64,000 bases of DNA from Bacteriovoracia bacterium. GTDB lineage: Bacteria; Bdellovibrionota; UBA1018; CAIPTA01. Where the stretch lies: assembly GCA_050246755.1 (NCBI GenBank), contig JBFWVL010000006.1, positions 32,001-96,000 on the forward strand, read 5' to 3'. A program made the translations under genes and the position numbers. The notes below the pieces were generated by a model. That model saw only the letters and a list, made by a program, of their open reading frames with translations. It had not been told where the DNA came from and searched no databases. Positions 1,392-56,467 of this stretch are shown here, in pieces (positions within the stretch are counted from its first letter, which is position 1; each line of letters starts with the position of its first letter).

Positions 1392-1450
1392 AAAGTGCAA
1401 GATGCACTAGCCTGAGAGCAAAAGTCCACGAAAAAGTGCGCCTTGCACTT
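1392..1450. promoter_or_regulatory. Pair of palindromic operator-like sites upstream of the AAA+ gene
   Basis: GTGCA-AGA-TGCAC (1395-1407) and AAGTGC-GCCTT-GCACTT (1434-1450). Confidence 0.5.
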
Positions 1451-1458
1451 CCTGCGCA

Positions 1459-2847
1459 TTAGGCCCCGGTTCCTTGGCCGAGCTTCGCCGCCTTCGACTG
1501 ATTCAGCAGGTATTGCAGGTGTTGGGGCGTCACGCCGAGCCTGCGGGCCGCTTCGATCTTGCTGCCGGAGGCTTCGATGGTTTCCAGGATGTAGGACATT
1601 TTGGCCTTGGACTTCTGCTCTTCCCATTCGGAAAGCCTCATGCTTCCGGGGGAAAATGAATCTTGATCCGAATAGAGCGCCAGGTCCAAGTCTTCAGGAC
1701 GCACCAGGGGGCCTTCCGTTTGGACCAAATGCTTCTCAACGACCGCCGCCAGCTCACGGACATTGCCGGGCCAGGGGTACTTTTTTAACACGTCCACCGC
1801 TCGGCTCTGGAAATAGCGATTTGTCTGATACCGCTTGTTGTAAATTTCCGAGAAGAACGCCACAAGCGGCTCGATATCTTCTACGCGCTCACGCAGCGGC
1901 GGGATCTCAATTTCCGCCACCTTGATCCGGTACATGAGGTCTTCGCGGAAGAGCCCATGTTTCATGAGGTCGTCGATCTTTTTGTGGCTTGCGCAAACGA
2001 TTCGCACGTCGATTTTCCGTGAGAGCCTTGCTCCAATCGGCTCGACCGTTCTTTCTTGCAGGACGCGCAGGAGCTTTGCCTGAAGATCCAAGGAAAGATC
2101 CCCGATCTCATCAAGAAAAATAGTCCCTTTGTCGGCCTGAATGAACTTGCCATCCTGATCCGCGATGGCTCCGGTGAACGAACCCTTTTTGTGTCCGAAC
2201 AAGGTGGATTCAAGCAGCTCCTTAGCGATGGCCGCACAGTTGATGGCAACGAACGGCCCTTTTGCGCGTGGTGAAAGATCGTGGAGAGCGCGGGCGACAA
2301 GCTCTTTTCCGGTGCCGGACTCGCCGTGAATGAGCACGGAAACGTCGCGGGCCTCCGCGATTTTTTTGGTCTTGATAGCGACTTCCGCCATGACCTGGGA
2401 CTGCCCCTCCATCTTGACGGCCGCCAAGTGGCGGCGATTCTCGTTCTTATTCGTCGTTGGGCGGATGGTTTTCAGCAACTCGTCATACCTGTTGCAGTAC
2501 ATCCGCACTTTGCTCAAAAGATCCTGCGGCTCCGAGCTTTTTTCGATGAACTCCACGGCTCCGGCCTGGTAGCTCAGTTTCAAAGCGTCACGGCTGTAAT
2601 CGGCAGAGTACATGGCGACTTGCTGAACTGGATTGATCTCACGAATCAGCTTCGCCACAAAATCGCCAGAGGACTGCGGCATCTGAAAATCCAGCAACAC
2701 GAGGGCAAATTCCTCTTTTTTGACCAGCATCAGCGCCTCATCGGAGGTTTGGGCCGTGCTGACCTCGTAGCCGTTGATTTCCAAATAGCCCTTAGTGGCT
2801 TTGATGTTCTTCAGGTCGTCATCGACCATGAGGATCTTATACGGCAT
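1459..2847 (-). CDS. Sigma54-dependent NtrC/AtoC-type response regulator (REC-AAA-Fis HTH)
   Basis: REC ILMVDDD...LLDFQMP; GESGTGKE; GSFTGA (GAFTGA variant); FLDEIG; WPGNVREL; AARRLGV HTH. Start moved to ATG 2847, which has an AAGGAG RBS. Confidence 0.95.
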   Translation of the reverse strand: MPYKILMVDDDLKNIKATKGYLEINGYEVSTAQTSDEALMLVKKEEFALVLLDFQMPQSSGDFVAKLIREINPVQQVAMYSADYSRDALKLSYQAGAVEFIEKSSEPQDLLSKVRMYCNRYDELLKTIRPTTNKNENRRHLAAVKMEGQSQVMAEVAIKTKKIAEARDVSVLIHGESGTGKELVARALHDLSPRAKGPFVAINCAAIAKELLESTLFGHKKGSFTGAIADQDGKFIQADKGTIFLDEIGDLSLDLQAKLLRVLQERTVEPIGARLSRKIDVRIVCASHKKIDDLMKHGLFREDLMYRIKVAEIEIPPLRERVEDIEPLVAFFSEIYNKRYQTNRYFQSRAVDVLKKYPWPGNVRELAAVVEKHLVQTEGPLVRPEDLDLALYSDQDSFSPGSMRLSEWEEQKSKAKMSYILETIEASGSKIEAARRLGVTPQHLQYLLNQSKAAKLGQGTGA

Positions 2848-4234
2848 GAGTGCTGCTCCTTTCCGTTCCCTCGGAGGGAACTGATACCGTGATCGTGGTC
2901 CCTTGACCCTGTCGGCTTTCGACATGGACCGAGCCATTTCTCTGCTCGCAGATATGCTTAACGATAAAGAGGCCAAGCCCTGTGCCGGTGGCGGGTTTGG
3001 ACGTGAAATCCGGCTCGAAAATCCGATCATACAAATGCGCCGGGATGCCGCACCCCCGGTCGGCAACTGAGAGAACGGAGGATTCCCCCTGTTTTTCGAC
3101 CTTGACGGAAATCTCCGCGCCCGTGTTTGAGGCATCCGCCGCATTTTCGACAAGGTTCTGAAGAATGCGAGCCACTTCCGAACGAGAAAGCGGAGCCAGG
3201 ACACCGGCCGCGGCTGATATATTCAACCGGATATTTTTGTTCTTGATGGATTCATTTTTCTGAAGAGACTCAATCTCCAGTCGAGCGGCATCGGAAAGAT
3301 CCAGGAGATTTTCTCTCTGATCGTTCTCGTTGAGAGTTTTCACCTGGGAGGCAATCATGGAAACTTTGCGAAGTGAGGTCTTAATTTCGTTAAGCGTGTC
3401 ACTGGCCGAGGGATCGACTTTCATCTGCTGATCCAGCGTCGCAAGATATAGTTGAACCTGAGAAACGGGGCTCAATAAGTCGTGCGCGATCCCGCGAAGT
3501 ACCAGCATCTTGGCCTTCTCGCTGGCCTGGCTTTCATAGCGTTCAATCTGGGCGGTCAGCCCCTCTATGGCATCTCGGAGCGGCGCAAGCTCTAAAAAAG
3601 GAGCCAGTGAAAGAGGGCTTTGGCTTTTGGGATTGATCCGCAGCCGCTTCGCCCATTCTTCGACTTCGGAAGCGAGCTTTTTTGACGAGACGCGGGCAAC
3701 GCTTCCGAGGCCAAGCAACATGGCCGCATAGCCAAAAGAGAAAATGAAGAAAACGATGACGACAAAGAGCCAGTCAATTTGCACCGATTTTGAAAGATAG
3801 AGGTAGCCGAAGAGGTTTTCCTTCTTCTCGTCAAAATAGATCGGGAAGAAAATTCGCCCAGGGCCGGTATAGCCATCGAAGCAAGTGAATCCCACGGTGC
3901 CACATGGACGAATAGTGTTTGGTATGATCGAGGTGGAGCGGTAAATATGCTGACGGTCTTGATTGAGAATCAAAGCGTCTTCGCCTTCCCCCAATCCGAG
4001 AACATTGTGGATTTGGTTTTCCACCGCCTTGATGTCACCTTCCAAGATCCGCGAGCGAAAGGCTTCAGCGGCAGCAGTGGCCGATTTCTGAAGATCGGTC
4101 GCCATTTTGTAGCGAGACAGAAAGAACGTGGCCGTCACGGAAATCAGAGCCATCGCTGTAAACCCGATAACGGATTGACGGAGGATGCTCCTTTCCAGGT
4201 AAGACTTGATCGTGGTGACGGCCCTTTTCTTCAC
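2837..4234 (-). CDS. Membrane sensor histidine kinase with periplasmic domain
   Basis: Two hydrophobic segments flanking a soluble domain; H-box IAHDLLSP; N-box NLVENA; DRGCG; F-box FEPDFTSK; GTGLGL. Confidence 0.95.
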   Translation of the reverse strand: MKKRAVTTIKSYLERSILRQSVIGFTAMALISVTATFFLSRYKMATDLQKSATAAAEAFRSRILEGDIKAVENQIHNVLGLGEGEDALILNQDRQHIYRSTSIIPNTIRPCGTVGFTCFDGYTGPGRIFFPIYFDEKKENLFGYLYLSKSVQIDWLFVVIVFFIFSFGYAAMLLGLGSVARVSSKKLASEVEEWAKRLRINPKSQSPLSLAPFLELAPLRDAIEGLTAQIERYESQASEKAKMLVLRGIAHDLLSPVSQVQLYLATLDQQMKVDPSASDTLNEIKTSLRKVSMIASQVKTLNENDQRENLLDLSDAARLEIESLQKNESIKNKNIRLNISAAAGVLAPLSRSEVARILQNLVENAADASNTGAEISVKVEKQGESSVLSVADRGCGIPAHLYDRIFEPDFTSKPATGTGLGLFIVKHICEQRNGSVHVESRQGQGTTITVSVPSEGTERSSTHAV

Positions 4235-5721: not shown

Positions 5722-6024
5722 TTAGAAGGGAGCCGTCCAGCAACTCGGTTCGCTTACGGTTTCCAGTCCAGCGGAGTTTCTTCCCCGGAGAACCAGATTT
5801 CCATTTTCATCCACGCCAAGAATAACCGATTCCCAGTCGATACGCACGGTCCTCTCTAAGTCGCGGATCAATTGTTCGTAGCGAGCGCGCTCATCCGTGG
5901 AAAGTCGTTCCAAGGGAGTGAACTTCCCGTTCGGAATGATCGGGACTTGCGCTTTGGCCGCATGGCCCATCCCCAGCAAAGCAGCGGCGACCAAGAGCCC
6001 CAACTTAGGTTTTGCGTTCTTCAT
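5722..6024 (-). CDS. Secreted 100-aa peptide, candidate YcaO substrate or signal precursor
   Basis: AAAGGGGG RBS before ATG 6024; Sec signal MKNAKPKLGLLVAAALLGMGHAAKA; C-terminus SEPSCWTAPF; stop directly abuts the next ATG. Confidence 0.8.
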   Translation of the reverse strand: MKNAKPKLGLLVAAALLGMGHAAKAQVPIIPNGKFTPLERLSTDERARYEQLIRDLERTVRIDWESVILGVDENGNLVLRGRNSAGLETVSEPSCWTAPF

Positions 6025-6038
6025 ATACTTTCCCCCTT

Positions 6039-7067
6039 TCAGGAAACGATATGCGGTTGAGTATTTAGAGTCCGTTCCTTCATGGAGACAGAAAAATTCC
6101 TCTTCTCTGCCTGTTTCAAAACTTTTTGAATGTCGGTGCTTCCCCATGCCAGTTCAAAAGCTCTTTCGTGAGTGGCAAATCCAGCGATGACCGGATGCTC
6201 CAGGGCTTGGTGAAACTTGAAATCGGACGCTTCCGACCGGAGAAGGTCGAGTCGTTCGTTCCAGGATTGCTCTGCTTCAAGCCAGGATGTTGCTGGGCCA
6301 AACATCCATGCGGGAAATGGCTCATGATGGGCGTAGTAAACCGCGTGAGCACCCGGCTGCACTCGAACTCTTTCTTCACGCCGAAGAAGGATTTGCGAGT
6401 CATTCCAAAATGAGCGGCGCAGGGCATGGTGGGCGGCCCGGCAGGTTTCGGCGATGGCGGATTCGATGCTGTCCTGCAATTCCGTCTTCGTCGAGTGGCC
6501 GGATACTCCGTAACCGGCGGCATTCAGAAAGAGACAAGTCACCGAGGGGCCAAGACCCTCGGTGGAAATCAGGAGCTTCATTTCGGGAAACTCGGACTGC
6601 GACAACTCGTTCCGCACCCAATGCAAGATGGACTGCGGCCATTCGCTCGGTGTGATTTCGAGAAACGGAACCGACAGATACCATTGAGCAAGAACGGCGT
6701 CGCGTTCCACCAGCTCAAGAATCGCTCCGGTTCTTGCTTGCGGAAGGGTTTCGTGCGCCGCCCAGCCATTGCTCGTTCCTAGATTTTCGTGGTTGAGTCC
6801 CTTGTGCCAGCGCATCAGGCTCGCACGTTCGATCAACTCCATGATCGCTTTCGTCATGGCAAGATCCTCTGTCTTGGCCTCTCCGCAAGCCCGAACCTCC
6901 ATGCCATCCAGGGAGGCTTCGATATTGATGATGAACTTGGAGAATCGGAAGCCTGCTGGCCGAGTGCCGCGAGAAACGCGCACGTCTCTAAACCCGAATG
7001 GAAGCGACTCCCACCAGGGAGCGGAGGCACCGCTTTGAGAATCTGGAATGGCGTTATCTAATCGCAT
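6039..7067 (-). CDS. YcaO-family protein (stand-alone, ~342 aa)
   Basis: CGEAKTEDLAMTKAIMELIER and TSNGWAAH...AILELVERDA match YcaO ATP-binding motifs; SAIAE motif; start placed at ATG 7067, downstream of the sigma54 promoter. Confidence 0.85.
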   Translation of the reverse strand: MRLDNAIPDSQSGASAPWWESLPFGFRDVRVSRGTRPAGFRFSKFIINIEASLDGMEVRACGEAKTEDLAMTKAIMELIERASLMRWHKGLNHENLGTSNGWAAHETLPQARTGAILELVERDAVLAQWYLSVPFLEITPSEWPQSILHWVRNELSQSEFPEMKLLISTEGLGPSVTCLFLNAAGYGVSGHSTKTELQDSIESAIAETCRAAHHALRRSFWNDSQILLRREERVRVQPGAHAVYYAHHEPFPAWMFGPATSWLEAEQSWNERLDLLRSEASDFKFHQALEHPVIAGFATHERAFELAWGSTDIQKVLKQAEKRNFSVSMKERTLNTQPHIVS

Positions 7068-7127
7068 GAAATACCAAGCCTTCTTGTTGATAGACCGCCT
7101 TGTTTCAGGCGCTCGGGTTTCCCTATG

Positions 7128-7144
7128 AGCAAGGACGGGGCCAA
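7128..7144 (-). promoter_or_regulatory. Sigma54 (-24/-12) promoter of the YcaO-peptide-SBP-HK-RR operon
   Basis: Minus strand TTGGCCCCGTCCTTGCT = GG-N10-GC, ~60 bp upstream of the ycaO start. Confidence 0.75.
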
Positions 7145-7227
7145 GTCGTAAAAGTGCTGAAAACCTGGGTTTTACGGCGAAATCCTGCATTTTTGTTGAT
7201 CTGCGGGTGCAGTTGGTGGTGCGGAAA

Positions 7228-7515
7228 TTCAGGATTTCTGAATCGGCCTGTGCGATGCGCGGTCGCCTGTAAACAATAACTGCGTGATATGTTTTACGTT
7301 TTCCACACGAAAGGCCCTGGTGCCACAAATTCAGGAACTCTGAATCGACATATAATTTTTATAGGCCGAGTGTCCGCGAGCGCACATGAGGCTGTTGTTT
7401 CGATGACAAATTCAGGATTTCTGAAGGGCTTCAGGTTTCCTGAATGTCATCGCAAGCCGTTGATTTCAAACTCGTAGTTTATTGTTTATCCAATCCGCTA
7501 TTCAGATTTTCTGAA
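7228..7515. promoter_or_regulatory. Five TTCAG-N5-CTGAA palindromes (candidate enhancer/UAS sites)
   Basis: Copies at 7228-7242, 7330-7344, 7411-7425, 7430-7444 and 7501-7515. Confidence 0.8.
7453..7465 (+). promoter_or_regulatory. IHF-consensus site
   Basis: CAAGCCGTTGATT matches YAANNNNTTGATW (reverse of WATCAANNNNTTR). Confidence 0.55.
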
Positions 7516-7595
7516 CTGAATCGGCGCTTTTCGAGAGCGCGAAAAATCCGATTTGTCTTTTTGCTTCTGAGACTTAGGTCACTTCAGCATTTTTC

Positions 7596-7610
7596 TGGCA
7601 TCGCCTTGCA
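7596..7610 (+). promoter_or_regulatory. Sigma54-like promoter of the tra operon, spacer one base short
   Basis: TGGCATCGCCTTGCA has good TGGCA and TTGCA boxes but GG-N9-GC spacing. Confidence 0.4.
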
Positions 7611-7666
7611 CTTTTAGAAGGTGAAAGGCCGCTCATTCCAGCGGGCCTGTTGGAAAGGAAAACGAA

Positions 7667-7891
7667 ATGTCCAAGTCCTATCTCACCCAATGCCCTCGCT
7701 GCGGCACTCGAAGCTACGAACAGCTTCACACCCATGGTCACTGCATCGAATGCCTCTACTCAAACGACCTCGCTCCACAGAGCGACAAGCGCGACTTCCT
7801 CACTCTGCGGGAAGCTGAGGCGCTGATCGAGCCGTCCGAGATTCATCAAATGCGAAGAGATCAAAAAAAGATTTCGGGAGCGGCGTCGTGA
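7667..7891 (+). CDS. Small zinc-ribbon-like protein
   Basis: CPRC...HCIEC; AAAGGA RBS. Confidence 0.7.
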   Translation: MSKSYLTQCPRCGTRSYEQLHTHGHCIECLYSNDLAPQSDKRDFLTLREAEALIEPSEIHQMRRDQKKISGAAS

Positions 7892-8376: not shown

Positions 8377-8730
8377 TTGTCAGAAAATAAAATCGAACAA
8401 AAGCAGAAATCGGAAAGGCTGAATCTCTACTGGCTGTGCGGCCAGACGGGACGAAAGCATCCCGCCGGGGTCGCATTCTTCAACGAAGAACAAGGCGACT
8501 ATCGGCTGAAGATCGACGTGATGCCCGACGATAAGACGTTTTTCCTGAAAACGATCTCGTCGAGCGATGACGTGACTTACTACCGCGTGGAGGCGGCCGT
8601 GAAAAAGGCCGGGCGCGTGGTCCACAGGGCGGAAGTCGGTTCCGGCTACGCCAAGAAGGAAGATCCCACCATCTACATGGACATCGGCCCGTTCTCGCGG
8701 ACCCTTGTTCTTGAGCAACAACAGGCTTGA
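8377..8730 (+). CDS. Hypothetical protein, possible tandem DUF736-like ssDNA-binding fold
   Basis: GGAG-N6-TTG start; two similar units PAGVAFF..YRLKID and EVGSGYA..IYMDIG. Confidence 0.55.
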   Translation: MSENKIEQKQKSERLNLYWLCGQTGRKHPAGVAFFNEEQGDYRLKIDVMPDDKTFFLKTISSSDDVTYYRVEAAVKKAGRVVHRAEVGSGYAKKEDPTIYMDIGPFSRTLVLEQQQA

Positions 8731-9032
8731 AGCAGGATCGTTTTCTGATGGTTCTCTTCGCGGGCTTTGCCGTTCTTATGGTGCTTTGCCCGGAACTCGC
8801 GCTCGCGCAGTTCTCGGGTGGTGCCCTGGAAAGCAAAGTCAACGGAGTGACGAGCGGGCTTATCAACTTTCTCTTGCCCGCCGCGAGCGTGATCGGACTG
8901 ATTTACAGTGCGATCCTCGCCGCGACCGGCGACGCCTCGGCGAAAGCCAGGATGACCACCATCGCAATCTGTAGCGTGGTGGGAATGCTGGCTCCTCTCA
9001 TCATTCGCTGGCTGCAAGGGATGGTGAACTGA
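8727..9032 (+). CDS. VirB2/TrbC-like pilin
   Basis: Signal ending PELALAQ, then two hydrophobic helices; first gene of the T4SS cluster. Confidence 0.75.
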   Translation: MKQDRFLMVLFAGFAVLMVLCPELALAQFSGGALESKVNGVTSGLINFLLPAASVIGLIYSAILAATGDASAKARMTTIAICSVVGMLAPLIIRWLQGMVN

Positions 9033-9316
9033 TGCTCAAGGCATCGACGGTTCACCGAAATCTGGATGCGAAGTTTAAGATCGGCGGCGTCGAAGCCGCC
9101 GATCTGTTGGCCGTTCTACTCACGGGTGCCGTGATGAATCTGATCTTTGGGCGGCTGTCCATTGGCCCCATTTTCATCTTCGGCATTCCGGGTCTTCTTT
9201 TCTGCGCTCTCTACTTTGGGAAGCGCGGAAAACCGGAGGGCTATCTTATGCACGCACTCAAGTTTTTTATTTCATCCGGCGAACTCAGAGCCGGTGAAAT
9301 CGAGGATTCCGTCTGA
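9032..9316 (+). CDS. VirB3/TraL-like membrane protein
   Basis: 94 aa with two TM helices, between pilin and VirB4; KRGKPEGYL tail. Confidence 0.7.
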   Translation: MLKASTVHRNLDAKFKIGGVEAADLLAVLLTGAVMNLIFGRLSIGPIFIFGIPGLLFCALYFGKRGKPEGYLMHALKFFISSGELRAGEIEDSV

Positions 9317-11742
9317 AGAAATCTCCCATTGCGGGGAAAGTGCCGTTCTTCCGGTTCGACGATCATCTGATGGTCTATCAAGACGGCTCGATGGGCGTCG
9401 GTTTCAGGCTCGGCGGATTCGATAGCAGTTGCGCCTCGGTGGACTCGATCAATGCGTTTTGCCAGAAGATCGAAAACTTTCTCGCCGGGCTCTCCGAGGG
9501 CCTGCGAATCCAGGTTTTCTACCGGCTGACGAACAACGCCTATGACGTGGTGGAGCAACACCGGGCGGTTTCGAGTGACAGTGCGCTTATCTATCAACCG
9601 ATCCGCAGCGCCCGCATCGCGTTTTTTGAAGAGAAGCTGGAATCTGGCCGGTTTTTTATGCCGGAAATCTATCTTTTCGTGCGCAGCCAGCCGCTTCAGC
9701 TCAAAAGGCGCAAGTTTTTCGAGAAGAAAGAGCGGTTTGAAGGGTTCCCGCCGGAGCAGTTTCGCGCCCATCAGGAACGGTTTGCCATTCTCGTCTCGCA
9801 GGTGGAGGCGGCGCTGCGCTCGGCGGCGATTGCGCCCAGCCGTCTGTTAAAGACGGATTGGTTCAATCTCTGCTTCTCGTACTTCAACATGGAGCGGGCC
9901 GAGATCATCGGTTGCCCCAGCTTGAGGGAGCCGACGGACGCGCTCGCTCCGAGCCTTGGTGCGCAACTGGCGCTCACGGACATTTCGGTTTCCGAGAAGC
10001 ACCTGAAGATTGGTGGGCTGTTCTTCCGCGTCGTCACGATGGGGATTTTACCGGAGGGCCAGACGGTCGCCTCCATGATCGAAAGCCTGATGAAACTGCC
10101 ATTCCACTTCTGGATGTCGCAGAACATTCACACGCTGGAACAGCGCAAAGAGATCGAAAAGCTCGAACTCATGCGCCGGATCGCAAGCTCGATGGCCTCG
10201 GGAAGCAAGAACGTCTCCGACATCGAAAGCGAATCGAAGCTGTCGAACCTCGAAGACCTGCTCCGCGAGGTCATGACCGGATCGGAGCGGCTGGTGTCTT
10301 CCGACCTGAACGTGATCTTTTGGGCGGAATCCCAAGAGGAGCTGGAGCAAAAGACGGAAGAAATCTTGCGGGCGTTCCGCGCCACCGGCCAGGCCGAAGG
10401 TCTGGTCGAGACGTTCGGCCTGGAGGACGCCTTTTTTAAGGCCGCGCCCAGCGTGTGCGAAGGGTTCCGCCATAAGCGCATGAAGACGAGCAATTGCGCT
10501 CATCTGATGCCCTTATACGCGGCCTGGATGGGCAATAAGCGGCCGGTGGTGCTGCTCACGAACCGCGAGGGAGCGCCCTTTGCCATCGACCCGTTCGCAC
10601 CGGAATTACCCAACTGGAACGGTCTGATTTTCGGCGGTAGCGGCTCAGGGAAGTCTTACTCGATTTCCCAGATGATGCTCCAGTTTTCCGGCCAGAAGTA
10701 TGGCGGCAAGCCGCCGAAGATCGTGTGGATCGACAACGGGGCCTCCAGCGAAAAGCTGATCGAGGTCATGGACGGCGAGTTCATCGACCTGAACCTCAAT
10801 TCGGGCATCCGCCTGAATGTGTTCGACCTTGAGGCCGGAGAAGCGAAGCCCACCGCCACCAAGATCAAACTGATCCTGGGGTGCCTTGAGCTGATCCTGA
10901 AGGACGACGACAAGGTGGGGCTCCCGAAGCGGGACAAGGGCCTGCTCGAAGAGGCCATTTTTTCCTGCTACCGCAAAACCGGTGAGCGCATTCCGCAGCT
11001 CTCCGATCTGAGGGAGATCCTGCGCGAGCATCCGGTGACGGATATGCGCAAATACGCCGACATCCTGTTCTCGTGGACTGGAGAAACGGCGTTCGGTCGG
11101 ATGCTCGATGGCCCCAGCAACGTGAAGCTCACCAAGGACTTGGTGTCCATCGAGATCAAGGGGCTGGAGAACTACCGGGATCTGAAGGACATCTTTCTGC
11201 TGCTGCTCACTTCGTACATCAAGGACGAAGCGGCCAGCGACTTGGCCCGCCCTTATCTGCTGATCGTGGATGAAGCACAACGGCTGTTCAAGTCGGGCTC
11301 TCCGATGGGAAGGGAGTTCGCCATAGATTCCTTTCGCGTTTTTCGTAAGTACAACGCCGGAATCTGGTGCATCTCGCAGAACTATAAAGATTTTTTGTCG
11401 GACCCGGATCTGGCAGATTCTCTCATGCCTAACACCACGTTCGTTTTCATCCTGCGGCAGCGGAAGATCGACTGGAACGACTTCAAGGAAACCTTCGACT
11501 TCGACGAAGCGGTTGTGGAGGCGGCGAAAAGTCTGGAGATCGTCAAGCGCAAGTTCTCCGAGTTTTTGCTGATCCAGGACGAAAATATCGCAGTTTTGCG
11601 TCTGGAATCTGACCCACTCAGTTACCGCATCTGTACCACCGACGGAAACGAAAAATCGGAGGAGAAGGCTCTTCGGGAAAGATATCCCGACCGCCCTCTC
11701 GTGGAAATTTTAAGTGAGCTTGCTCAAGGAGATTCGCATTAA
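9313..11742 (+). CDS. virB4: VirB4/TraC-like conjugation ATPase
   Basis: GGSGSGKS Walker A, LLIVDEAQ Walker B, RKYNAGIWCISQ. Start may be CTG 9313 (GAGGA-N6) or GTG 9340. Confidence 0.9.
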   Translation: MKKSPIAGKVPFFRFDDHLMVYQDGSMGVGFRLGGFDSSCASVDSINAFCQKIENFLAGLSEGLRIQVFYRLTNNAYDVVEQHRAVSSDSALIYQPIRSARIAFFEEKLESGRFFMPEIYLFVRSQPLQLKRRKFFEKKERFEGFPPEQFRAHQERFAILVSQVEAALRSAAIAPSRLLKTDWFNLCFSYFNMERAEIIGCPSLREPTDALAPSLGAQLALTDISVSEKHLKIGGLFFRVVTMGILPEGQTVASMIESLMKLPFHFWMSQNIHTLEQRKEIEKLELMRRIASSMASGSKNVSDIESESKLSNLEDLLREVMTGSERLVSSDLNVIFWAESQEELEQKTEEILRAFRATGQAEGLVETFGLEDAFFKAAPSVCEGFRHKRMKTSNCAHLMPLYAAWMGNKRPVVLLTNREGAPFAIDPFAPELPNWNGLIFGGSGSGKSYSISQMMLQFSGQKYGGKPPKIVWIDNGASSEKLIEVMDGEFIDLNLNSGIRLNVFDLEAGEAKPTATKIKLILGCLELILKDDDKVGLPKRDKGLLEEAIFSCYRKTGERIPQLSDLREILREHPVTDMRKYADILFSWTGETAFGRMLDGPSNVKLTKDLVSIEIKGLENYRDLKDIFLLLLTSYIKDEAASDLARPYLLIVDEAQRLFKSGSPMGREFAIDSFRVFRKYNAGIWCISQNYKDFLSDPDLADSLMPNTTFVFILRQRKIDWNDFKETFDFDEAVVEAAKSLEIVKRKFSEFLLIQDENIAVLRLESDPLSYRICTTDGNEKSEEKALRERYPDRPLVEILSELAQGDSH

Positions 11743-12439
11743 ACGAACGAAGACTTGCCTGGTGGCGGCCCTCATTATGGCCTGCGCGTTGCGCCCAGCG
11801 CCCGCGCTGGCGTTCACCGATGGTTCGGGATGGGCTGCGGTTGGATACCTCATTAAAATTCTGGAGGAAAACTACCGGCGGTATGTGCAGCTCAAGGCCA
11901 TGATCGACACGGCGAACGGTCACTATGACTATATCCGGGCGCTCAATCGCGGCCTGGACAATTCCATCGGTCTTTTGGAGGCGCTGCCCATCAAGGACGA
12001 GAAGGTTCTGGCGGAACTGAAGAACTTCAAGGAAGCGGTCGCCCGCGTGGAACTGCTCTATGGAAAAATTCCGCAGAGCCCGGATGAAGCCCTGCATCTC
12101 CTGCACGATCAATCGGTGGCGGAAAGCCTGCGGATGGCAAACTCCTTCAAGGATTTCTCCGACACGCAGGAGAAAAATTCGCTGTTGATCGCCGCCCAAG
12201 CGCGGGAGGCATCGCCCAAGGGCGCAGCCCGTATGCAGGCCGAGACAAGCGCGGAGATCCTGCGCACTCTCTCGCAGTTGATTCGCCTTAACACGCAGAT
12301 GCTCAAGCTCCAAAGCGAGCAGATCGCAATGGCGAATAAGTCCGCGAAAGACGAAGTGGCGGGATTTCAGAAGATCAACCAAGACCTTGGAAGCGGATTT
12401 TCCAAGTTCAAGCCGGACATGAAATTCATCGTTTTCTAA
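11738..12439 (+). CDS. VirB5/TrbJ-like secreted helical protein
   Basis: Signal peptide KRTKTCLVAALIMACALRPAPALA; coiled-coil character; position between VirB4 and VirB6. Start ATT 11738 (AAGGAG-N6) or GTG 11714. Confidence 0.65.
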   Translation: MKRTKTCLVAALIMACALRPAPALAFTDGSGWAAVGYLIKILEENYRRYVQLKAMIDTANGHYDYIRALNRGLDNSIGLLEALPIKDEKVLAELKNFKEAVARVELLYGKIPQSPDEALHLLHDQSVAESLRMANSFKDFSDTQEKNSLLIAAQAREASPKGAARMQAETSAEILRTLSQLIRLNTQMLKLQSEQIAMANKSAKDEVAGFQKINQDLGSGFSKFKPDMKFIVF

Positions 12440-13387
12440 ATGTTTGAATATCTAGGAAGCGTTGGCGCGGAACTCCACGCGCAGATGGTTCAAATGTACT
12501 GGATTCTTTTGGTTCCATTCGTCGTGTTCCTGTTCGTGTTGGAGGTCATCAAGGACGACAACCCGAATTTGCGCGATTTGTTCCGCCGGATCGTGTTTTC
12601 GGTGCTGCTGCTGCTCACCTTTGACTGGACCCTTCAGACGATTGCCGTGGTTGGCGACGCCGTGACGGAGAAAATCAACGGACTGCAACGACTCTCCGAG
12701 GTTCTTCAGAATCTCGGGCCGAACTACTCCGGCAAGGATAGCTGGTTCAATGTGCGGGAAACGATTCTCTATGTCTTCAGCGTCGCTGCCTACCTGATCG
12801 CCTATCTTGGCTTTTTCGTGGCAACGGCGTTGACCCATTTCGTCTGGACGATCTTGTATGTGGCGGCACCCTTGATGATTCTCATGTACGTCAGTCGCCA
12901 TACGGAGCGCGTGACCATGAGTCTCTACAAGGGATTGGTGCAGGTCGTGATCTGGAAAATTTTGTGGTCGATTCTCGGCGTATTGCTGCTCAAGCTCGCC
13001 ATGCAGCCGGAGGTCACGGGGCTTGAGGATTATATCATGTCCATCGTGGTGAATCTTTGCATCGGCTTCTCGATGCTGTTCATCCCGATTGCCACGAGAT
13101 CCTTGATTTCGGATGGGATGTCGTCGGTTGCAAGCTCGCTTGCGGCGGTTCCGGCGATTGCCGCCGGGGGCGCGGTCAAGATGGCGGCGGCCAAGTACGG
13201 AGGAAAAATCGCGGGTGCCGCCGCGTTCGCGGCCAAGCCCGCCACGAACCCCATCGCGGGGCGCGTGGAGATGATGAAGGACCGACTGCAACCACGATTC
13301 GAGCAGGCAAAGAAGGCTTACGGAGCCATCGGGCTCCCGCAGGAAATTCTCAAAAAAAGAGCCAGAAAAGAAAAGAGGAATAAGTGA
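12440..13387 (+). CDS. VirB6/TrbL-like polytopic membrane protein
   Basis: Multiple TM helices and an Ala/Gly-rich C-terminal tail. Confidence 0.75.
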   Translation: MFEYLGSVGAELHAQMVQMYWILLVPFVVFLFVLEVIKDDNPNLRDLFRRIVFSVLLLLTFDWTLQTIAVVGDAVTEKINGLQRLSEVLQNLGPNYSGKDSWFNVRETILYVFSVAAYLIAYLGFFVATALTHFVWTILYVAAPLMILMYVSRHTERVTMSLYKGLVQVVIWKILWSILGVLLLKLAMQPEVTGLEDYIMSIVVNLCIGFSMLFIPIATRSLISDGMSSVASSLAAVPAIAAGGAVKMAAAKYGGKIAGAAAFAAKPATNPIAGRVEMMKDRLQPRFEQAKKAYGAIGLPQEILKKRARKEKRNK

Positions 13388-13977
13388 ACGAAAAATCTAA
13401 GAACACGATCCCGAATATCTGGACCGCGCAAGAGAACCTGATCCATTTTTATCGGATTCTCTCTGCGGGTCTGGGCGGGCTCGCCGTCATTTTGCTGGTG
13501 GTGGCCGTCGCATTCGGTTTTCGAGATCCGATTGTCGTCGTGAAATCGGATGATGCGCAGGAGTTTTTTGTGAGCCGCCGAGCGCCGGTTTCCATTGAAA
13601 AGAAGGATGTCGAAAATATCACGCGGCGTTTTCTCGATGCGCTGTATGTCTGGCCGGAGTTTAACGGCCAGGCGCTCGCCAAAGAGATCGCGCCTTATGC
13701 TGAAGAAGCCTTGGTGGGAAAAATCGTCGAAACGCAGGTGCTCAAGTACGGAAAGGACTTCAAGGGCAAGAAGCTCGCTCAGGAGCTGTCCTTCGTCAAT
13801 GTGACTGTTCAGGAGGATCGCGTGGTCTGTAACTTCGACCGCATCCTGAAGATCGAAGGGATACCGCTGGTCATTCCAACCGAAGTCACGCTGTCGATGC
13901 TGCGCGGAAGTAGCACACGGGAAAATCCGATGGGCGTCTTCGTCTCTGGTATTTTAGAAAATGAAGGCGCGAAGTAA
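13384..13977 (+). CDS. VirB8/TraE-K-like bitopic protein
   Basis: Single N-terminal TM; C-terminal RENPMGVFV motif typical of the VirB8 family. Confidence 0.75.
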   Translation: MNEKSKNTIPNIWTAQENLIHFYRILSAGLGGLAVILLVVAVAFGFRDPIVVVKSDDAQEFFVSRRAPVSIEKKDVENITRRFLDALYVWPEFNGQALAKEIAPYAEEALVGKIVETQVLKYGKDFKGKKLAQELSFVNVTVQEDRVVCNFDRILKIEGIPLVIPTEVTLSMLRGSSTRENPMGVFVSGILENEGAK

Positions 13978-14713
13978 GTTGTGGGGTTTTGTCGGACTGT
14001 TGATGCTGATTTCGATTGAAGTCGGAGCAATGGTCCCGCCGGGTGACAAACGAACTATCCTCACCTCCGGGGAGAAGGTTTACCCGATCCAATATCGGCT
14101 CGGCACGAGTACGATTTTGTATTTCGGACTGCGCCCCGAGACGGTGATCTGCGGGAACAAAAACTATTTCAACATCGAGAAGATCAAGGAGGGAATCACG
14201 ATTCAACCTCTGTCGAATTTCTCCACTAACCTGACGGTTCTCGCTCAGGGTCGGCGCTATTTGTTTTTCCTGACCCCCGCGAGCGGTCGCCCCGATGGGT
14301 TCGTGGAAGTGAAATGGGTTCCACCCGGTCAGGCCAGATCCGTCAAAGCGTTGGCGAAGCATGACGGCGAAGTGACCCGAGAGCTCGGACAGAAGACCAA
14401 GATCGGCACCGCCGTTGAATTTTCCATTTTGCGCGAGAAGGCATTGGACAAAGGGAAGCGCCGGATCTTCGAGATCGAGATGAAAAACCTCGGCGGGAAA
14501 GCCATTCCCGCAAACCAGTTTGAGGTAGTGGCCTCTATCGCGGGCGTCCCTCTCGCCCGCCAGGTTGTCGTCTGGGAGGGCGACGACCTGAAGGAGAAAG
14601 GCAAGCTCCGGGGCCGCGTGATCGTCTCGGGCCACGATGGAAAGCCTCTGAGTCTCGTTGTCGGCTATCTCGGCAAGAGCACCAAGCTCATCATCAAGGG
14701 GGGCCGCAATTAA
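13961..14713 (+). CDS. VirB9/TrbG-like secreted protein
   Basis: Signal peptide; VYPIQYRLGTSTILYF and STNLTV...RRYLF motifs. Confidence 0.75.
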   Translation: MKARSKLWGFVGLLMLISIEVGAMVPPGDKRTILTSGEKVYPIQYRLGTSTILYFGLRPETVICGNKNYFNIEKIKEGITIQPLSNFSTNLTVLAQGRRYLFFLTPASGRPDGFVEVKWVPPGQARSVKALAKHDGEVTRELGQKTKIGTAVEFSILREKALDKGKRRIFEIEMKNLGGKAIPANQFEVVASIAGVPLARQVVVWEGDDLKEKGKLRGRVIVSGHDGKPLSLVVGYLGKSTKLIIKGGRN

Positions 14714-15638
14714 GTGGTGGGGAACGTGTCGGGAGTGGCTGAAGCGGATTTTTCTCCAGGCTAGCGGCGGCAAAACCATTGTCGCCCTTCAGCGCGTGGG
14801 TGTCGTGGCTGGCGGCGGGCTTTTGCTGCTCGCTGCTGGCATGGCCTGGTTCGGCCCCGCAGAGGATCGGACGTTCTATTTGCAGACGACGCAGACGCAG
14901 AATCGCGGCGAGGAAAATTCCCCAAGCAGCAGAACGGCGGTCAGCGGGCCTGTCGCGGCGCTTTTTGGCAATAGCGAGAGGAAAAAGGAATCAGAGGCGC
15001 GGGCCGCGATGGAGCAAAAACGAAAGCGCGTCGTTATCAAGTATTACGCGCCTCAACTCGTAGGCCAATCGAACAAGGTGCCGAAGGCCATTCGCTCGGG
15101 TGCCAAGCTGGTTGGCTTTCTCCTGAAAGCCATCGACACCCGTGCGCCTTCGCCGGTTCATGTACGCATCGCCCAGGGCGGCGAAGTGAATGGCGTCGAG
15201 ATCGAGAAGGGCTCGGTTTTGACCGGCCAGTATTCCTACGCCGGTTCCGGCGAGCTGGTTTTCGTGTCGTTCTCGCGGCTGGATACGCCCGAGGGCGAGC
15301 CCAAGAAAATCCAGGCGCAGGCCCTTGATAGCGGCACCTACACCGCCGGGATTTCCGGCGAGGTGTATTCCGACGCCGGGCTCAAGACGGCCGCGAGCCT
15401 CGGGCTGACCATGTTCGGCGGTATGGCCGATGTCCTGACGGAGAAGGAATCGCTCGGATTCTCGCAAAACGGTGTGCAGGCCAAATCCACCATGCGGAAT
15501 GCACTCTTGCAGGGGCTTTCCCGTTCAGCACAGGAGCAGACAGGCCGGATGCAGAACGAGATCAACTCGGCGAAGGACTATGTGCTCATTCCCGAGGGCA
15601 AGGAAATGATTATCGAACTGACTGAGGATTTCAAATAG
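14709..15638 (+). CDS. VirB10/TrbI/TraM-like protein
   Basis: N-terminal TM; IEKGSVLTG, AGISGEV and IPEGKEMIIEL motifs. Start ATT 14709 (AAGGGGGG-N5) or TTG 14658. Confidence 0.75.
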   Translation: MKWWGTCREWLKRIFLQASGGKTIVALQRVGVVAGGGLLLLAAGMAWFGPAEDRTFYLQTTQTQNRGEENSPSSRTAVSGPVAALFGNSERKKESEARAAMEQKRKRVVIKYYAPQLVGQSNKVPKAIRSGAKLVGFLLKAIDTRAPSPVHVRIAQGGEVNGVEIEKGSVLTGQYSYAGSGELVFVSFSRLDTPEGEPKKIQAQALDSGTYTAGISGEVYSDAGLKTAASLGLTMFGGMADVLTEKESLGFSQNGVQAKSTMRNALLQGLSRSAQEQTGRMQNEINSAKDYVLIPEGKEMIIELTEDFK

Positions 15639-17173
15639 AGAGCAAAAAGCATGATGGAAAATCAGACGGTTTTACGGCTTTAGGAAAAGTGATCGGCGGA
15701 ACGGCCCGCTTTTTTGGTTCGGTGATCTGGACCGGGATTCGCTACGGCGTCCATTGGAAACCGAGAGTGTTTCTCTCTTGGGGCATTTACCTTGTGTGGA
15801 TCGCCCTCGTCATCTTCGGGCCGAGGTGGAACTTGAGCGTTCTGCTTCAGCTCGCGGGCTCAATCGTAGGATGGGGCGGATTCGGCGCGTGGATGGGGGC
15901 GCACGTTCCGCGCCTGGTGCAGCTCTTTGTGTTTTTCGTTCTGCCCCTGTGCGGCTGGCTGTTCGCGCACGGAATCCGAACGTGGATCGGCTTGAAAAAG
16001 TATCAGCGGGCCATCGACCACTTGGGGCTGAAGACGCCCACGGGGGTCACGCCGAAAGTCGCTCGGGTCGTCGAACTTGAGAACAAGCAGCGCCGGGTTC
16101 TCGTTCACGCCGTTGGGCTCGATGTGGCTCAGTTTCGGGATAAGAAAGGCGTTTTGGAATCGAGCTTCAACGCCATCGTGCAGGAAGTTCGCGTGACACC
16201 AGCAAATCGCCAGATGGTCGAGATCCTGGTTTCCGACCGGGAGCTGCCGACGCTCGTGCGCTTCGACTCTCACGCGGAAGCCTTACGCAAGCCCTACACG
16301 TTCCTCGTGGGCGAAACGGTGGATGGTTTTATCACCGCCGATCTGTGTGAGATCCACCACCTACTGATCGGGGGCGCGACAGGAGGAGGAAAAAGCGTGT
16401 TCTTCAAGCAGGCGTTGGTTGGAATCCTGAAAAGCTCCGACCACGTTCAGCTCTATCTTTTGGACCTGAAACGCGGAGTTGAGTTTCGGGTTTTCGGCAC
16501 ACTCAAGAACGTGCGGGTTTCCAAGGACGAGGCCACGGCGATTTCCATGCTCCAGCGGGTTGTTGAGGAAATGGAGCGCCGGTTCCGCATTCTGGAGGAA
16601 AAGGGATTCACCGAGATCGTGCCGGAAAGGGATGGGTTGGATCGAATCGTGGTCGCGGTGGACGAGGCTTCCGTGCTGTTCACCGTCGGCAAGATGTCAA
16701 AGGAAAGCAAGGCCGCTGCCATAGGTGCCCGCGAGCTGACGGACAAGATCGCCAAGCTCGGCCGCGCCGCTGGCATTCACTTGATCCTGGCGACGCAAAA
16801 GGTTGTGAAGGAAACCATCGACACCCGTGTTCAGACGAACATCAACGCGAAAATGTGTTTTCGCGTGAACACCATCGCAAGCTCAATGACCGTGCTGGGT
16901 AATAAGAAGGCCGCAGACCTCCCCGACATCAAAGGGCGCGGCATTTGGTCCGTTGGAAGCAACGATCTGGTCGTTCAGGTTCCATATCTGGACGGCGACG
17001 AGATCAACGAGGAAGTCTTGGGCCTGGCTGCCAAGTTCAACGGTGAAGCATCGCCGCTGAAGCAAAAAATGCTTCAAACGATGGCGCCGAAGAAGAAGCG
17101 GTCCAAGAGCAACACCATGAGCCAGGAGGAGATCGAACAATTCGAGGCCGAGGAGAATCAGGATGTCGATTGA
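15635..17173 (+). CDS. FtsK/SpoIIIE-type (TcpA-like) coupling ATPase
   Basis: N-terminal TMs; HLLIGGATGGGKS, LDLKRGVEF, VAVDEA, LGRAAGIHLILATQ. Start ATA 15635 (GAGGA-N6) or GTG 15689. Confidence 0.9.
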   Translation: MESKKHDGKSDGFTALGKVIGGTARFFGSVIWTGIRYGVHWKPRVFLSWGIYLVWIALVIFGPRWNLSVLLQLAGSIVGWGGFGAWMGAHVPRLVQLFVFFVLPLCGWLFAHGIRTWIGLKKYQRAIDHLGLKTPTGVTPKVARVVELENKQRRVLVHAVGLDVAQFRDKKGVLESSFNAIVQEVRVTPANRQMVEILVSDRELPTLVRFDSHAEALRKPYTFLVGETVDGFITADLCEIHHLLIGGATGGGKSVFFKQALVGILKSSDHVQLYLLDLKRGVEFRVFGTLKNVRVSKDEATAISMLQRVVEEMERRFRILEEKGFTEIVPERDGLDRIVVAVDEASVLFTVGKMSKESKAAAIGARELTDKIAKLGRAAGIHLILATQKVVKETIDTRVQTNINAKMCFRVNTIASSMTVLGNKKAADLPDIKGRGIWSVGSNDLVVQVPYLDGDEINEEVLGLAAKFNGEASPLKQKMLQTMAPKKKRSKSNTMSQEEIEQFEAEENQDVD

Positions 17174-17903
17174 TATTCAGCCACGGGACCGGCGGATCAT
17201 GCGCCATGTGTTCGTTCATCGTGTTGCGACTTACGATCAGATTCGCAGGAAGTTTTTCACTAAGAACTTTGAAACGGTGGCGAGAAATCGCATTCGTAAG
17301 CTGGTTAAGCACGGATATTTCCGCTCGTTCGGCGCGGAACATGGTGGCGTCCTGATCCGCGCCTTGAGCCTTACGGAAAAATCGTGGCCGCTCATTTCGG
17401 AAGGATGGGGCTTTGACGTGGATAATCCGCACTTCCGCAGTGAATCCATCGAGCATGATTTTCGCTTGGCCGAGGTGGTCTTGAAGTTTGAAAGGCTCCA
17501 GTCCTTTGTGCGGTTCCTGTCGGAGAACCTTCTACAATCCTCATCGGCACTCGCGGCGGACCCGATTTTTCGGGATGCGGTCAACCTGCAAGCGGACGGC
17601 GTTCTCGCGCTCAAAGAAAAGGATGGCAGCTCTATTCTGTACGCGGTGGAGTATGAGATCAGCAAGAAAGCGCCGGATCGCTATATCCGAAAGCTCGAAG
17701 GCTACTATCAGGCCGGCGGCATTGATGGCGTTTTGTACGTCTGCGGGAATCAGGAGATCGCCGCCGCCGTTGCGCAGGCGGATCGTAAGATTCGCACGGG
17801 ACACGAATCCATCGTGTTCCTCGCCGGGGAATCCAGTGTTCTCAAGTCGGAAGGCAAGATCATCTTCAAGGGAGTCAGTGGTGGCGGCATAGGGCTTATT
17901 TGA
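17163..17903 (+). CDS. Replication-relaxation (Replic_Relax/MOBC-like) relaxase
   Basis: N-terminal wHTH (QPRDRRIM...RIRKLVKHGY); IEHD; QADG...AVEYEISKK (D..ExE) and RYIRKLEGY. Confidence 0.8.
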   Translation: MSIDIQPRDRRIMRHVFVHRVATYDQIRRKFFTKNFETVARNRIRKLVKHGYFRSFGAEHGGVLIRALSLTEKSWPLISEGWGFDVDNPHFRSESIEHDFRLAEVVLKFERLQSFVRFLSENLLQSSSALAADPIFRDAVNLQADGVLALKEKDGSSILYAVEYEISKKAPDRYIRKLEGYYQAGGIDGVLYVCGNQEIAAAVAQADRKIRTGHESIVFLAGESSVLKSEGKIIFKGVSGGGIGLI

Positions 17904-17907
17904 GGGG

Positions 17908-18101
17908 TCAGTCGGACGACTAAGTTGCCTCAGTTTTTTCTCAGTCGCTCGACTGAGGCATTTCAAGCGTAAGTGACTGATATGACGGAAATTCGGTTGC
18001 CGGTTTTTATGGGGGGTCACGGCCATACGGAAATTTGCTTCTGAGACGATTTTGCCGGGAGGCAAGGTCGTCGAAGGAGCAAGAAGTGACGAGGCCGTGA
18101 C
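17908..18101. other. Candidate oriT region with nested inverted repeats
   Basis: CTCAGTCG-CT-CGACTGAG (17940-17957); TGCCTCAGT/ACTGAGGCA (17926-17960); TCAGTCG-GA-CGACTAA (17908-17923); GTCACGGCC/GGCCGTGAC (18016/18093); directly downstream of the relaxase. Confidence 0.5.
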
Positions 18102-18159
18102 GGAGCGGCGGCGGGCCGGAGGAAGGATAGAGCGTATTAAATAACAAGAGGAGCTACAT

Positions 18160-19028: not shown

Positions 19029-19274
19029 GTGATGGATCTGGACGAGTTCACGCTGGCAGACAGATTGAAGGAACAGCTTCTGACCTCCATCGAGAAGACG
19101 ATGGAGGATGCGAATATCAGCCAAGGGGAAGTTGCTCGGAGAATCGGCGCTCTCCGGCGGAACGTGAATCAGATCATGGGTCGGAAGAAAAACGCGTCCC
19201 TCGACTACATATTGAAAATGGCCGAGAGCATCGGCCTCGATGTGGAGATGAGGGTCAAGAAACCGAGGGCTTGA
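19029..19274 (+). CDS. XRE-family HTH regulator
   Basis: ISQGEVARRIG..RRNVNQIM...ASLDYILKMAESIG. Confidence 0.85.
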   Translation: MMDLDEFTLADRLKEQLLTSIEKTMEDANISQGEVARRIGALRRNVNQIMGRKKNASLDYILKMAESIGLDVEMRVKKPRA

Positions 19275-19360
19275 AGAAGGCCAGCGGTGACTTCGCCGAT
19301 TGCGGCGGGTGATTCATCCGATCCAAAATTGATGATGGTTTTTCGACCCCACAAGGGTCA

Positions 19361-19537
19361 TTGCTCTTTGACAATTCATGGTTAGATACGAAAGAGGCAG
19401 CGGTGTACTTGCGGACCTCTCCGAAGCAGATTCGGAGCTGGGTCTATCAAGGGAAAATCAGGGCCTACAAACTTCTCGGACGTAGTTACCGATTCAAAAA
19501 ACAGGATCTCGACTCCTTGCTGAAAGGGGTCGGATAA
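19361..19537 (+). CDS. xis: Excisionase (HTH_17/MerR-like), not in ORF track
   Basis: Reads LLFDNSWLDTKEAAVYLRTSPKQIRSWVYQGKIRAYKLLGRSYRFKKQDLDSLLKGVG; TAA overlaps the integrase ATG; start uncertain. Confidence 0.85.
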   Translation: MLFDNSWLDTKEAAVYLRTSPKQIRSWVYQGKIRAYKLLGRSYRFKKQDLDSLLKGVG

Positions 19538-56451: not shown

Positions 56452-56467
56452 TGGCACGATGGTTGCT
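56452..56467 (+). promoter_or_regulatory. Sigma54 promoter
   Basis: TGGCACGATGGTTGCT, near-perfect -24/-12 consensus. Confidence 0.7.

What the first reader, a model, noticed from the sequence alone, without database searches (positions are those of the whole stretch)
7128..7610. Bidirectional enhancer region: five TTCAG-N5-CTGAA palindromes, an IHF site and outward-facing sigma54-type promoters
Seen: the motif occurs at 7228, 7330, 7411, 7430 and 7501. The 7411/7430 pair lies inside a larger inverted repeat, CGATGACA…TGTCATCG (7401-7452). An IHF consensus sits at 7453-7465. The outermost copies are each ~80-100 bp upstream of the leftward (7128-7144) and rightward (7596-7610) promoter-like elements. 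Established: bEBPs bind palindromic UAS ~80-150 bp upstream, often with IHF bending. Inference: these are the binding sites of the 1459-2847 regulator, linking autoinduction to tra expression.
Basis: partly seen in the sequence, partly recalled or inferred. Interest (0 to 1): 0.75.

Follow-up and report, generated by a model that had tools for sequence, protein, structure and literature searches.

The report
Activator sites switching on conjugation genes
Five short DNA palindromes between two back-to-back operons are most likely the docking sites of a signal-sensing activator that switches on both its own signalling genes and the DNA-transfer genes of a mobile element in predatory bacteria, and the transfer promoter has an oddly shortened layout that recurs across the element family.

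Summary
The five TTCAG-N5-CTGAA copies are real (0.09 expected) and unchanged in a close relative (50 of 50 bases against 326 of 402 others). They lie between a YcaO/peptide/sensor/NtrC-type operon and the transfer operon of an integrative conjugative element; its relatives are nearly all Bdellovibrionota. Across that family the regulatory module is swapped and the palindrome changes with it. Where module and transfer promoters lie 1-8 kb apart, the dyad learnt at the module promoter picks out its own transfer promoter (first of about 36 in 5-6 of 9 elements; a tenth afterwards). Binding and autoinduction are untested. Two corrections: the IHF match is chance-level window-wide and lies between sites, not next to the promoter; and the rightward promoter is GG-N9-GC, one base short. 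All 13 module promoters are canonical, but 16 of 36 transfer promoters have N8, N9, N19 or N20. That is unexplained and is the most interesting lead. I found no description of such control in nine literature searches.

The parts
7228..7242 (.). Palindrome 1, TTCAG-N5-CTGAA; centre at -118 from the predicted leftward start (7117); proximal site of the signalling operon promoter
   Evidence: kept in L001
7330..7344 (.). Palindrome 2; -220 from the leftward start, 102 bases from site 1 (103 in L005)
7411..7425 (.). Palindrome 3; -203 from the predicted rightward start (7621); first of a pair 19 bases apart
   Evidence: same offset in L001 and L011
7430..7444 (.). Palindrome 4; -184 from the rightward start
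   Evidence: same offset in L001 and L011
7501..7515 (.). Palindrome 5; -113 from the rightward start; proximal site of the transfer promoter
   Evidence: other elements carry their own dyad at -104 to -129
7128..7143 (-). Canonical sigma54-type -24/-12 element (GG-N10-GC) before the YcaO-peptide-SBP-kinase-activator operon; predicted +1 near 7117
   Evidence: 13 of 13 module promoters examined have this spacing
7596..7610 (+). Sigma54-like element before the transfer operon, with GG-N9-GC spacing (one base short); predicted +1 near 7621 if the -12 box sets the start
7453..7465 (-). Exact IHF consensus match between palindromes 4 and 5; role doubtful
   Evidence: kept in L001, absent in L011; the consensus itself is recalled
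7401..7452 (.). Longer imperfect inverted repeat enclosing palindromes 3 and 4; outer arms not conserved
1459..2847 (-). NtrC-type enhancer-binding protein: receiver, sigma54-activator AAA+ domain (GSFTGA loop), Fis-type HTH; the proposed binder
   Evidence: Pfam PF00072 and PF00158, PF02954 above cut-off; three-helix C-terminal model, mean pLDDT 75
2837..4234 (-). Sensor histidine kinase
   Evidence: PF02518, PF00512
4231..5721 (-). Family 5 solute-binding protein, candidate signal receptor
   Evidence: PF00496; receptor role inferred
5722..6024 (-). 100-residue ORF ending in CWTAPF, candidate signal precursor
   Evidence: sequence; no Pfam match; homologue in L005 ends CWGH; role inferred
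6039..7067 (-). YcaO-family peptide-modifying enzyme, first gene of the leftward operon
   Evidence: PF02624
7667..7891 (+). 74-residue zinc-ribbon protein, first gene of the rightward operon
   Evidence: two CxxC motifs; only weak zinc-ribbon matches
8727..17903 (+). Transfer genes: VirB2-, VirB4-, VirB6-, VirB9-, VirB10-like, FtsK-type coupling protein, Replic_Relax-like relaxase
   Evidence: several matches are below the curated cut-off
19029..20688 (+). XRE-type HTH (19029-19274), excisionase-like HTH_17 (19361-19537) and tyrosine integrase (19537-20688)

Best explanation
The region is the shared control centre of an integrative conjugative element. The five palindromes are upstream activator sequences for the element's own NtrC-type enhancer-binding protein (1459-2847). 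Sites 1-2 serve the canonical leftward sigma54 promoter of the signalling operon, which makes a positive feedback loop. Sites 3-5 serve the rightward promoter of the transfer operon. Shown: the sites, their conservation, their offsets, the protein domains, and the co-variation of dyad with module across the family. Inferred: that the kinase phosphorylates the activator after the solute-binding protein senses a YcaO-modified peptide; that the activator's HTH binds the dyads; that it loops to sigma54 polymerase. My working reading of the short spacer is a deliberately weak promoter, so that transfer needs a higher activator level than the feedback loop does. That step is the least secure.
For: (1) 5 copies against 0.09 expected; 50 of 50 motif bases unchanged in L001 against 326 of 402 other bases, Fisher p 5.5e-5. 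(2) L011 (67% VirB4 identity) keeps sites 3-5 at the same -203/-184/-113 offsets though its spacer DNA is unrelated. (3) L005 has the same YcaO/peptide/SBP module, 6.1 kb from its transfer promoter, with copies at both: two before YcaO (one exact, one with 1 mismatch, 103 apart) and one with 1 mismatch at -200 of tra. (4) L003, with a closer backbone (74% VirB4) but another module and activator clade, lacks the motif and has a different dyad shared with L009, whose activator is of its clade. (5) In split elements the dyad learnt at the module promoter ranks its own tra region first among 35-37 regions of other clades in 5 or 6 of 9 cases over four settings. For L053 the dyad learnt was later found 3 times in 22 kb: twice at the module promoter and once 90 bases before a tra promoter located afterwards. 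(6) Within one activator clade, L019-L021 have ATTGC half-sites and L027/L036 have ATCGC, in step with a change in the HTH helix. (7) 26 of 37 loci with at least 7.8 kb of upstream DNA encode such an activator. (8) Proximal sites at -113 and -118 fit the 100-150 bp range given in PMC7057263 (passages).
Against: No binding or expression data. The tra element fails the canonical sigma54 spacing (N9). The blind test failed for L007 and L027 and did not put L005 first; the reverse direction gave only 2-5 of 9 among 8-9 competitors. L051 and L052 are one clade, so the successes are five independent clades plus L053. L011's regulatory module is not on the fetched stretch, so its activator is unknown; its backbone sister L007 has an unrelated HTH yet a similar TTCAG-N4-CTGAA dyad (3 one-mismatch copies), so half-site similarity does not map one-to-one on HTH sequence. 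L005's activator is assigned (P0254, 68% identity over the C-terminal 78 residues) only by equal contig length. The activator has GSFTGA, not GAFTGA. Presence of rpoN in the host was not checked.
Confidence: 0.72

Rival explanations
1. The activator binds all five sites, but the tra promoter does not work as an ordinary sigma54 promoter. Either it needs an element-encoded co-factor that corrects the geometry (for example the first-gene zinc-ribbon protein), or the activator acts there without sigma54 or as a repressor, as FleQ does at pel.
For: 16 of 36 distinct tra promoter cores place the -12 box at N8 (4), N9 (3), N19 (3) or N20 (6) and 5 more have a degenerate -12, against 13 of 13 canonical module promoters. 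Background TGC frequency at any one offset is 1-3%. N19/N20 is about one helical turn beyond N9/N10. FleQ acts without sigma54 at pel (PMC3424551, passages).
Against: 15 of 36 tra cores are canonical, so no special mechanism is needed family-wide. Activator-site offsets and the downstream AT-rich then G-rich block stay in register with the -12 box, as expected for sigma54 opening. Some papers allow spacing slack (TGGCACN5-7TTGCT in PMC12316311; 4-7 nt in PMC11997794). No sigma70-type promoter was found in 7040-7700.
Confidence: 0.17
2. The palindromes are operators of another element-encoded DNA-binding protein: the XRE (19029-19274), the excisionase-like protein, or the AAA+ protein (527-1360).
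For: All three are encoded by the element; divergent operators are typical of XRE switches (recalled). The AAA+ gene is co-oriented with the module and cannot be excluded for L005 and L011, whose fetched DNA stops short of that position.
Against: The XRE helix of L005 (AKRYNINKVM) is nearly that of L003 (AQRYNINKVM), yet their dyads differ. XRE identity to the window is 59% for motif-less L003 and 51-54% for motif-bearing L005 and L011. No copy lies near the XRE, xis or int genes. The AAA+ gene was found only in the window and L001 of 58 stretches, while the two-promoter dyad design occurs in elements whose captured modules lack it; it has other dyads before its own gene and no clear HTH match.
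Confidence: 0.07
3. The repeats are an origin of transfer, replication iterons or RNA hairpins.
For: They are clustered inverted repeats in a conjugative element.
Against: They lie between the two predicted transcription starts, so they would not be transcribed; no Rfam match in the window. They change with the signalling module, not the relaxase. A better oriT candidate, a conserved GGGGTCA-like motif after an inverted repeat, sits just behind the relaxase gene.
Confidence: 0.03

Closest known systems
NtrC-family enhancer/sigma54 promoter systems (NtrC, NtrC1, ZraR, DmpR-Po)
   Same: Receiver-AAA+-Fis HTH activator (best solved relative Aquifex NtrC1, 1ny5, E 2e-76); dyad sites about 110-120 bases upstream; a canonical GG-N10-GC promoter on the left.
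   Different: One site cluster serves two divergent promoters of a mobile element; the transfer promoter is mis-spaced; the IHF-like site is not between the proximal site and the promoter.
Signal-controlled ICEs: ICEBs1 (RapI/PhrI/ImmR) and ICEMlSym-R7A (TraR, QseM/QseC)
   Same: An element-encoded signalling module appears to gate transfer genes (PMC5812530, passages).
   Different: Those use a peptide-inhibited antirepressor or a LuxR-type activator. Here it is a periplasmic binding protein, kinase and sigma54 activator, with the presumed signal synthase swapped among YcaO, radical SAM, acetyltransferase and hydrolase/methyltransferase genes.
Myxococcus xanthus EBP regulons (Nla28)
   Same: Autoregulating enhancer-binding proteins with tandem half-sites and TGGCACG-N4-TTGC promoters (PMC9765219, passages).
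   Different: Chromosomal developmental control, not a mobile element; the consensus quoted has canonical spacing.
FleQ at the pel promoter
   Same: An enhancer-binding protein acting at a promoter that lacks a typical -24/-12 site (PMC3424551, passages).
   Different: Here both boxes are well conserved and only their spacing is off, and the sites are far upstream rather than overlapping the start.

Membership tests
sigma54/bEBP enhancer system | Cognate activator with sigma54-interaction AAA+ domain and DNA-binding HTH | tested here: met
   PF00158 E 1.5e-65, PF00072, PF02954 above cut-off
sigma54/bEBP enhancer system | GAFTGA loop | tested here: inconclusive
   GSFTGA; keeps the T and F that PMC7057263 calls important; P0254 and most family members have GAFTGA or GAYTGA
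sigma54/bEBP enhancer system | GG-N10-GC promoter, leftward (signalling operon) | tested here: met
   7143-7128; 13 of 13 module promoters
sigma54/bEBP enhancer system | GG-N10-GC promoter, rightward (transfer operon) | tested here: not met
   GG-N9-GC at 7596-7610, same in L001; so it resembles, but is not filed as, a canonical sigma54 promoter
sigma54/bEBP enhancer system | Conserved dyad sites about 100-150 bp upstream of the start | tested here: met
   centres at -113 and -118 from predicted starts; further sites to -220; starts are predicted, not mapped
sigma54/bEBP enhancer system | IHF site between the activator sites and the promoter (frequent, not obligatory) | tested here: inconclusive
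   exact match lies between sites 4 and 5; 2 seen against 1.78 expected; not in L011; many relatives have matches 19-51 bases before the -24 box instead
sigma54/bEBP enhancer system | Direct binding of the activator and dependence on sigma54 and ATP hydrolysis | not testable with these tools
   needs bench work; host rpoN lies outside the window and was not checked
Integrative conjugative element | VirB4, coupling protein, relaxase and integrase in one chromosomal block | tested here: met
   housekeeping-type genes follow in the window; left end and att sites not defined
Quorum-controlled ICE (ICEBs1 or ICEMlSym type) | Rap/Phr or LuxR/LuxI regulators | tested here: not met
   no such Pfam match among the element's genes scanned
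Quorum-controlled ICE (ICEBs1 or ICEMlSym type) | Self-made diffusible signal controls transfer | not testable with these tools
   gene content is suggestive only

The most novel reading that the evidence does not exclude
This ICE family keeps its transfer operon behind a purposely mis-spaced sigma54 promoter (-24 box shifted by -1, -2, +9 or +10 bases, in several separate lineages) that is functional, either through unusual flexibility of sigma54 under a multi-site enhancer or with an element-encoded co-activator that resets the geometry. It would be a natural class of sigma54 promoters outside the fixed-spacing rule, used as a second lock on conjugation behind swappable private signalling channels.
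Probability: 0.25. Interest if true: 0.85.

Novelty: new variant of a known kind. Interest (0 to 1): 0.62.

Why it matters
Enhancer-dependent sigma54 control is textbook, but my searches found no report of it gating conjugative transfer, nor of this element family in predatory Bdellovibrionota. The family offers a natural series of about a dozen activator HTH/dyad pairs, each read out twice per element, which makes the recognition code and the signalling specificity directly testable. The repeated non-canonical spacing at only the transfer promoter bears on how strict sigma54 promoter geometry really is.

Tried and rejected
DNA similarity searches of 7060-7700 in phages and plasmids: no match; VirB4 in plasmids gave only distant hits, 23-27% among the 15 listed. 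Rfam and tRNA scans of the window: nothing. Sigma70 promoter and terminator scan of 7040-7700: none. A small ORF over the region (7289-7477) is broken by stops in L001 and is rejected; 7444-7617 stays open in L001 but has no other support. A 2x2 test of promoter box against activator presence (p 0.02) is withdrawn: my first pattern missed TGGT-type boxes in L053, L054 and L055; only L002 and L025, from one genome, lack both. The W-versus-L011 footprint p-value is circular and not used. A hand-read motif matrix is post hoc and missed its own element for L029 and L052. The careful activator tree did not finish; the quick tree was used for clade labels only. The accession look-up that would confirm that P0254 lies on the L005 contig could not be made. 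Two papers on sigma54 spacing (PMC3429621, PMC148710) are not held, so the strictness of the rule is recalled.

Full report
Observation. TTCAG-N5-CTGAA occurs exactly five times in the 64 kb window, at 7228, 7330, 7411, 7430 and 7501; shuffles give 0.09 and never 5. Allowing one mismatch adds a single distant site. The leftward element at 7143-7128 is a canonical GG-N10-GC. The rightward element at 7596-7610 is GG-N9-GC. The IHF consensus (pattern recalled) matches exactly at 7453-7465, but 2 matches in the window are what chance gives (1.78); its presence in this particular 600-base region is only mildly unusual. The outer inverted repeat is present but not conserved in the closest relative.

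Context. To the left run YcaO, a 100-residue ORF, a family 5 solute-binding protein, a histidine kinase, an NtrC-type activator, an AAA+ protein and a cold-shock protein. To the right run small ORFs, VirB-like genes, an FtsK-type coupling protein, a relaxase-like gene, an XRE, an excisionase-like gene and a tyrosine integrase. The activator has a receiver, a sigma54-interaction domain with GSFTGA, and a Fis-type HTH. An alignment of 32 VirB4 homologues fetched 57 loci from genome contigs; nearly all record titles name Bdellovibrionota. Of the 37 loci with at least 7.8 kb upstream of VirB4, 26 encode such an activator; in several of the other 11 the module is cut by the fetch limit. The modules share activator, kinase and usually a binding protein but differ in the accompanying enzymes: YcaO, radical SAM, acetyltransferase, hydrolase with methyltransferase.

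Conservation of this motif. L001 (98% VirB4) keeps all five sites: 50 of 50 motif bases against 326 of 402 other bases between the promoters, p 5.5e-5. L011 (67%) keeps three exact copies at the same offsets from the -12-derived start, -203, -184 and -113, although its promoter spacer is one base shorter still. L005 (70%) has the YcaO module 6.1 kb from its transfer promoter and has copies at both places. Its two leftward sites are 103 bases apart (102 in the window) and shifted 21-22 bases, about two helical turns. Among 38 transfer-promoter regions, only these four carry the motif within 250 bases at one mismatch or fewer. L002 has one exact copy inside its VirB4 gene, which I treat as chance.

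Which protein binds. The motif follows the module, not the backbone. L003 is closer to the window than L005 or L011 in VirB4, FtsK, relaxase and XRE identity, but it has another activator clade and another dyad, shared with L009. The XRE helices of L003 and L005 are nearly the same while their dyads differ. The AAA+ gene was seen only in the window and L001 and has other dyads before it. As a less biased test I took the nine elements whose module and transfer promoters are 1-8 kb apart, learnt the top dyads from 250 bases before the module promoter alone, and ranked all 38 transfer regions. The element's own region beat all 35-37 regions of other clades in 6 of 9 and in 5, 6, 5 and 5 of 9 under four settings; about 0.25 would be expected by chance. 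L007 and L027 failed, and L005's dyad picked L011, the window and L001 ahead of L005. The reverse direction was weaker, 2-5 of 9 among 8-9 competitors. L053 was left out at first because I had not found its transfer promoter; once found, the dyad learnt earlier lay 90 bases upstream, one of only three copies in 22 kb. Promoter positions were picked by hand from pattern lists, and related elements are not independent. The activator is the only DNA-binding protein common to these modules, so it is the best candidate. For L011 the activator is unknown.

The promoter anomaly. All 13 module promoters examined are GG-N10-GC. Of 34 distinct transfer-promoter cores, 13 have GC at N10, 5 have a degenerate -12 there, and 16 have the -12 box at N8 (4), N9 (3, the window among them), N19 (3) or N20 (6). 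Two more canonical cores (L053; L054/L055) were found later, giving 16 of 36. TGC follows an arbitrary YGGCAY at any one offset in 1-3% of 1502 background sites. On a quick VirB4 tree without clade tests, N20 appears in two separate groups, N19 in a third, and N8/N9 interleave with N10. The AT-rich stretch and G-rich block downstream stay in register with the -12 box in most members. The N19 calls are the weakest (ATGCT, CTGCT, TCGCT). That one-base changes in this spacer abolish sigma54 promoters is recalled; the papers I could read give the canonical consensus (PMC9765219) or allow some slack (PMC12316311; PMC11997794).

Mechanism. Most likely, signal sensed through the binding protein and kinase activates the enhancer-binding protein. 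It binds sites 1-2 to boost its own operon from a strong canonical promoter, and sites 3-5 to open a weakened transfer promoter at a higher threshold. Sites, domains, offsets and co-variation are shown; binding, signal identity, sigma54 dependence and the threshold are inferred. IHF may bend DNA between sites 4 and 5, but the evidence is thin.

Literature. Nine searches (listings and abstract starts only) showed no paper on sigma54/enhancer control of conjugation or on this element family. I read passages only, by term search, of PMC7057263, PMC5812530 (rpoN appears only in its reference list), PMC9765219, PMC12316311, PMC11997794, PMC13682980, PMC3162934, PMC2700276 and PMC3424551. The library lacks most subscription journals, so absence is weak evidence.

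Verdict. It works like an NtrC enhancer system; the left promoter passes the membership test, the right one fails on spacing. New variant of a known kind; interest 0.62.

Noticed in passing
window 17900-18202: Non-coding gap after the relaxase gene: an inverted repeat followed by a GGGGTCA-like motif that recurs at this place in 9 of the 10 elements printed (not L006); candidate origin of transfer.
   Followed up: partly
window 1394-1450: Two other dyads before the AAA+ gene (AAGTGC-N5-GCACTT and AGTGCA-N3-TGCACT), kept in L001; 12 bases of the first are identical to 7602-7613 in the transfer promoter. Could be a second regulator's site or chance.
   Followed up: partly
window 527-1360: 277-residue AAA+ protein with no named family; nearest Atlas clusters are mostly phage hypothetical ATPases; seen only in the window and L001.
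   Followed up: partly
L003, L009, L017, L020, L034, L045, L051 upstream of the transfer genes: The regulatory module is swapped across the family, with different candidate signal synthases (YcaO plus small ORF, radical SAM, GNAT, cupin, hydrolase plus methyltransferase) beside activator, kinase and binding protein: a possible set of private signalling channels.
   Followed up: partly
window 5722-6024: Possible precursor with a signal-peptide-like start and a C-terminal CWTAPF; the L005 homologue ends CWGH.
   Followed up: no
L054:6225-6560 and L055:6235-6570: Three copies of a roughly 50-base unit (TGTTAA-N9-TTAACA followed by a G-rich and T-rich tail) downstream of a sigma54-like site and before the first transfer gene.
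   Followed up: no
L034:8604-8945, L034:7926-8483 and homologues: Many elements start the transfer operon with a stand-alone sigma70 region-4 HTH protein (33 proteins in 28 loci), and some with a DksA/TraR-type zinc finger; the window has DUF5348 there instead.
   Followed up: no
window 7139-7161 and 7583-7605: Both promoters have TTCAGCAYTTTT just upstream of the -24 box; not well kept in L001.
   Followed up: partly
window 56452-56467: A textbook sigma54 site (TGGCACGATGGTTGCT) in an intergenic region outside the element suggests that the host uses canonical spacing.
   Followed up: no
window 19537-20760; L001:20270-21319; L036:20633-22366: The integrase is swapped between near-identical elements (28% identity to L001's) and many relatives carry a large serine recombinase instead.
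   Followed up: no
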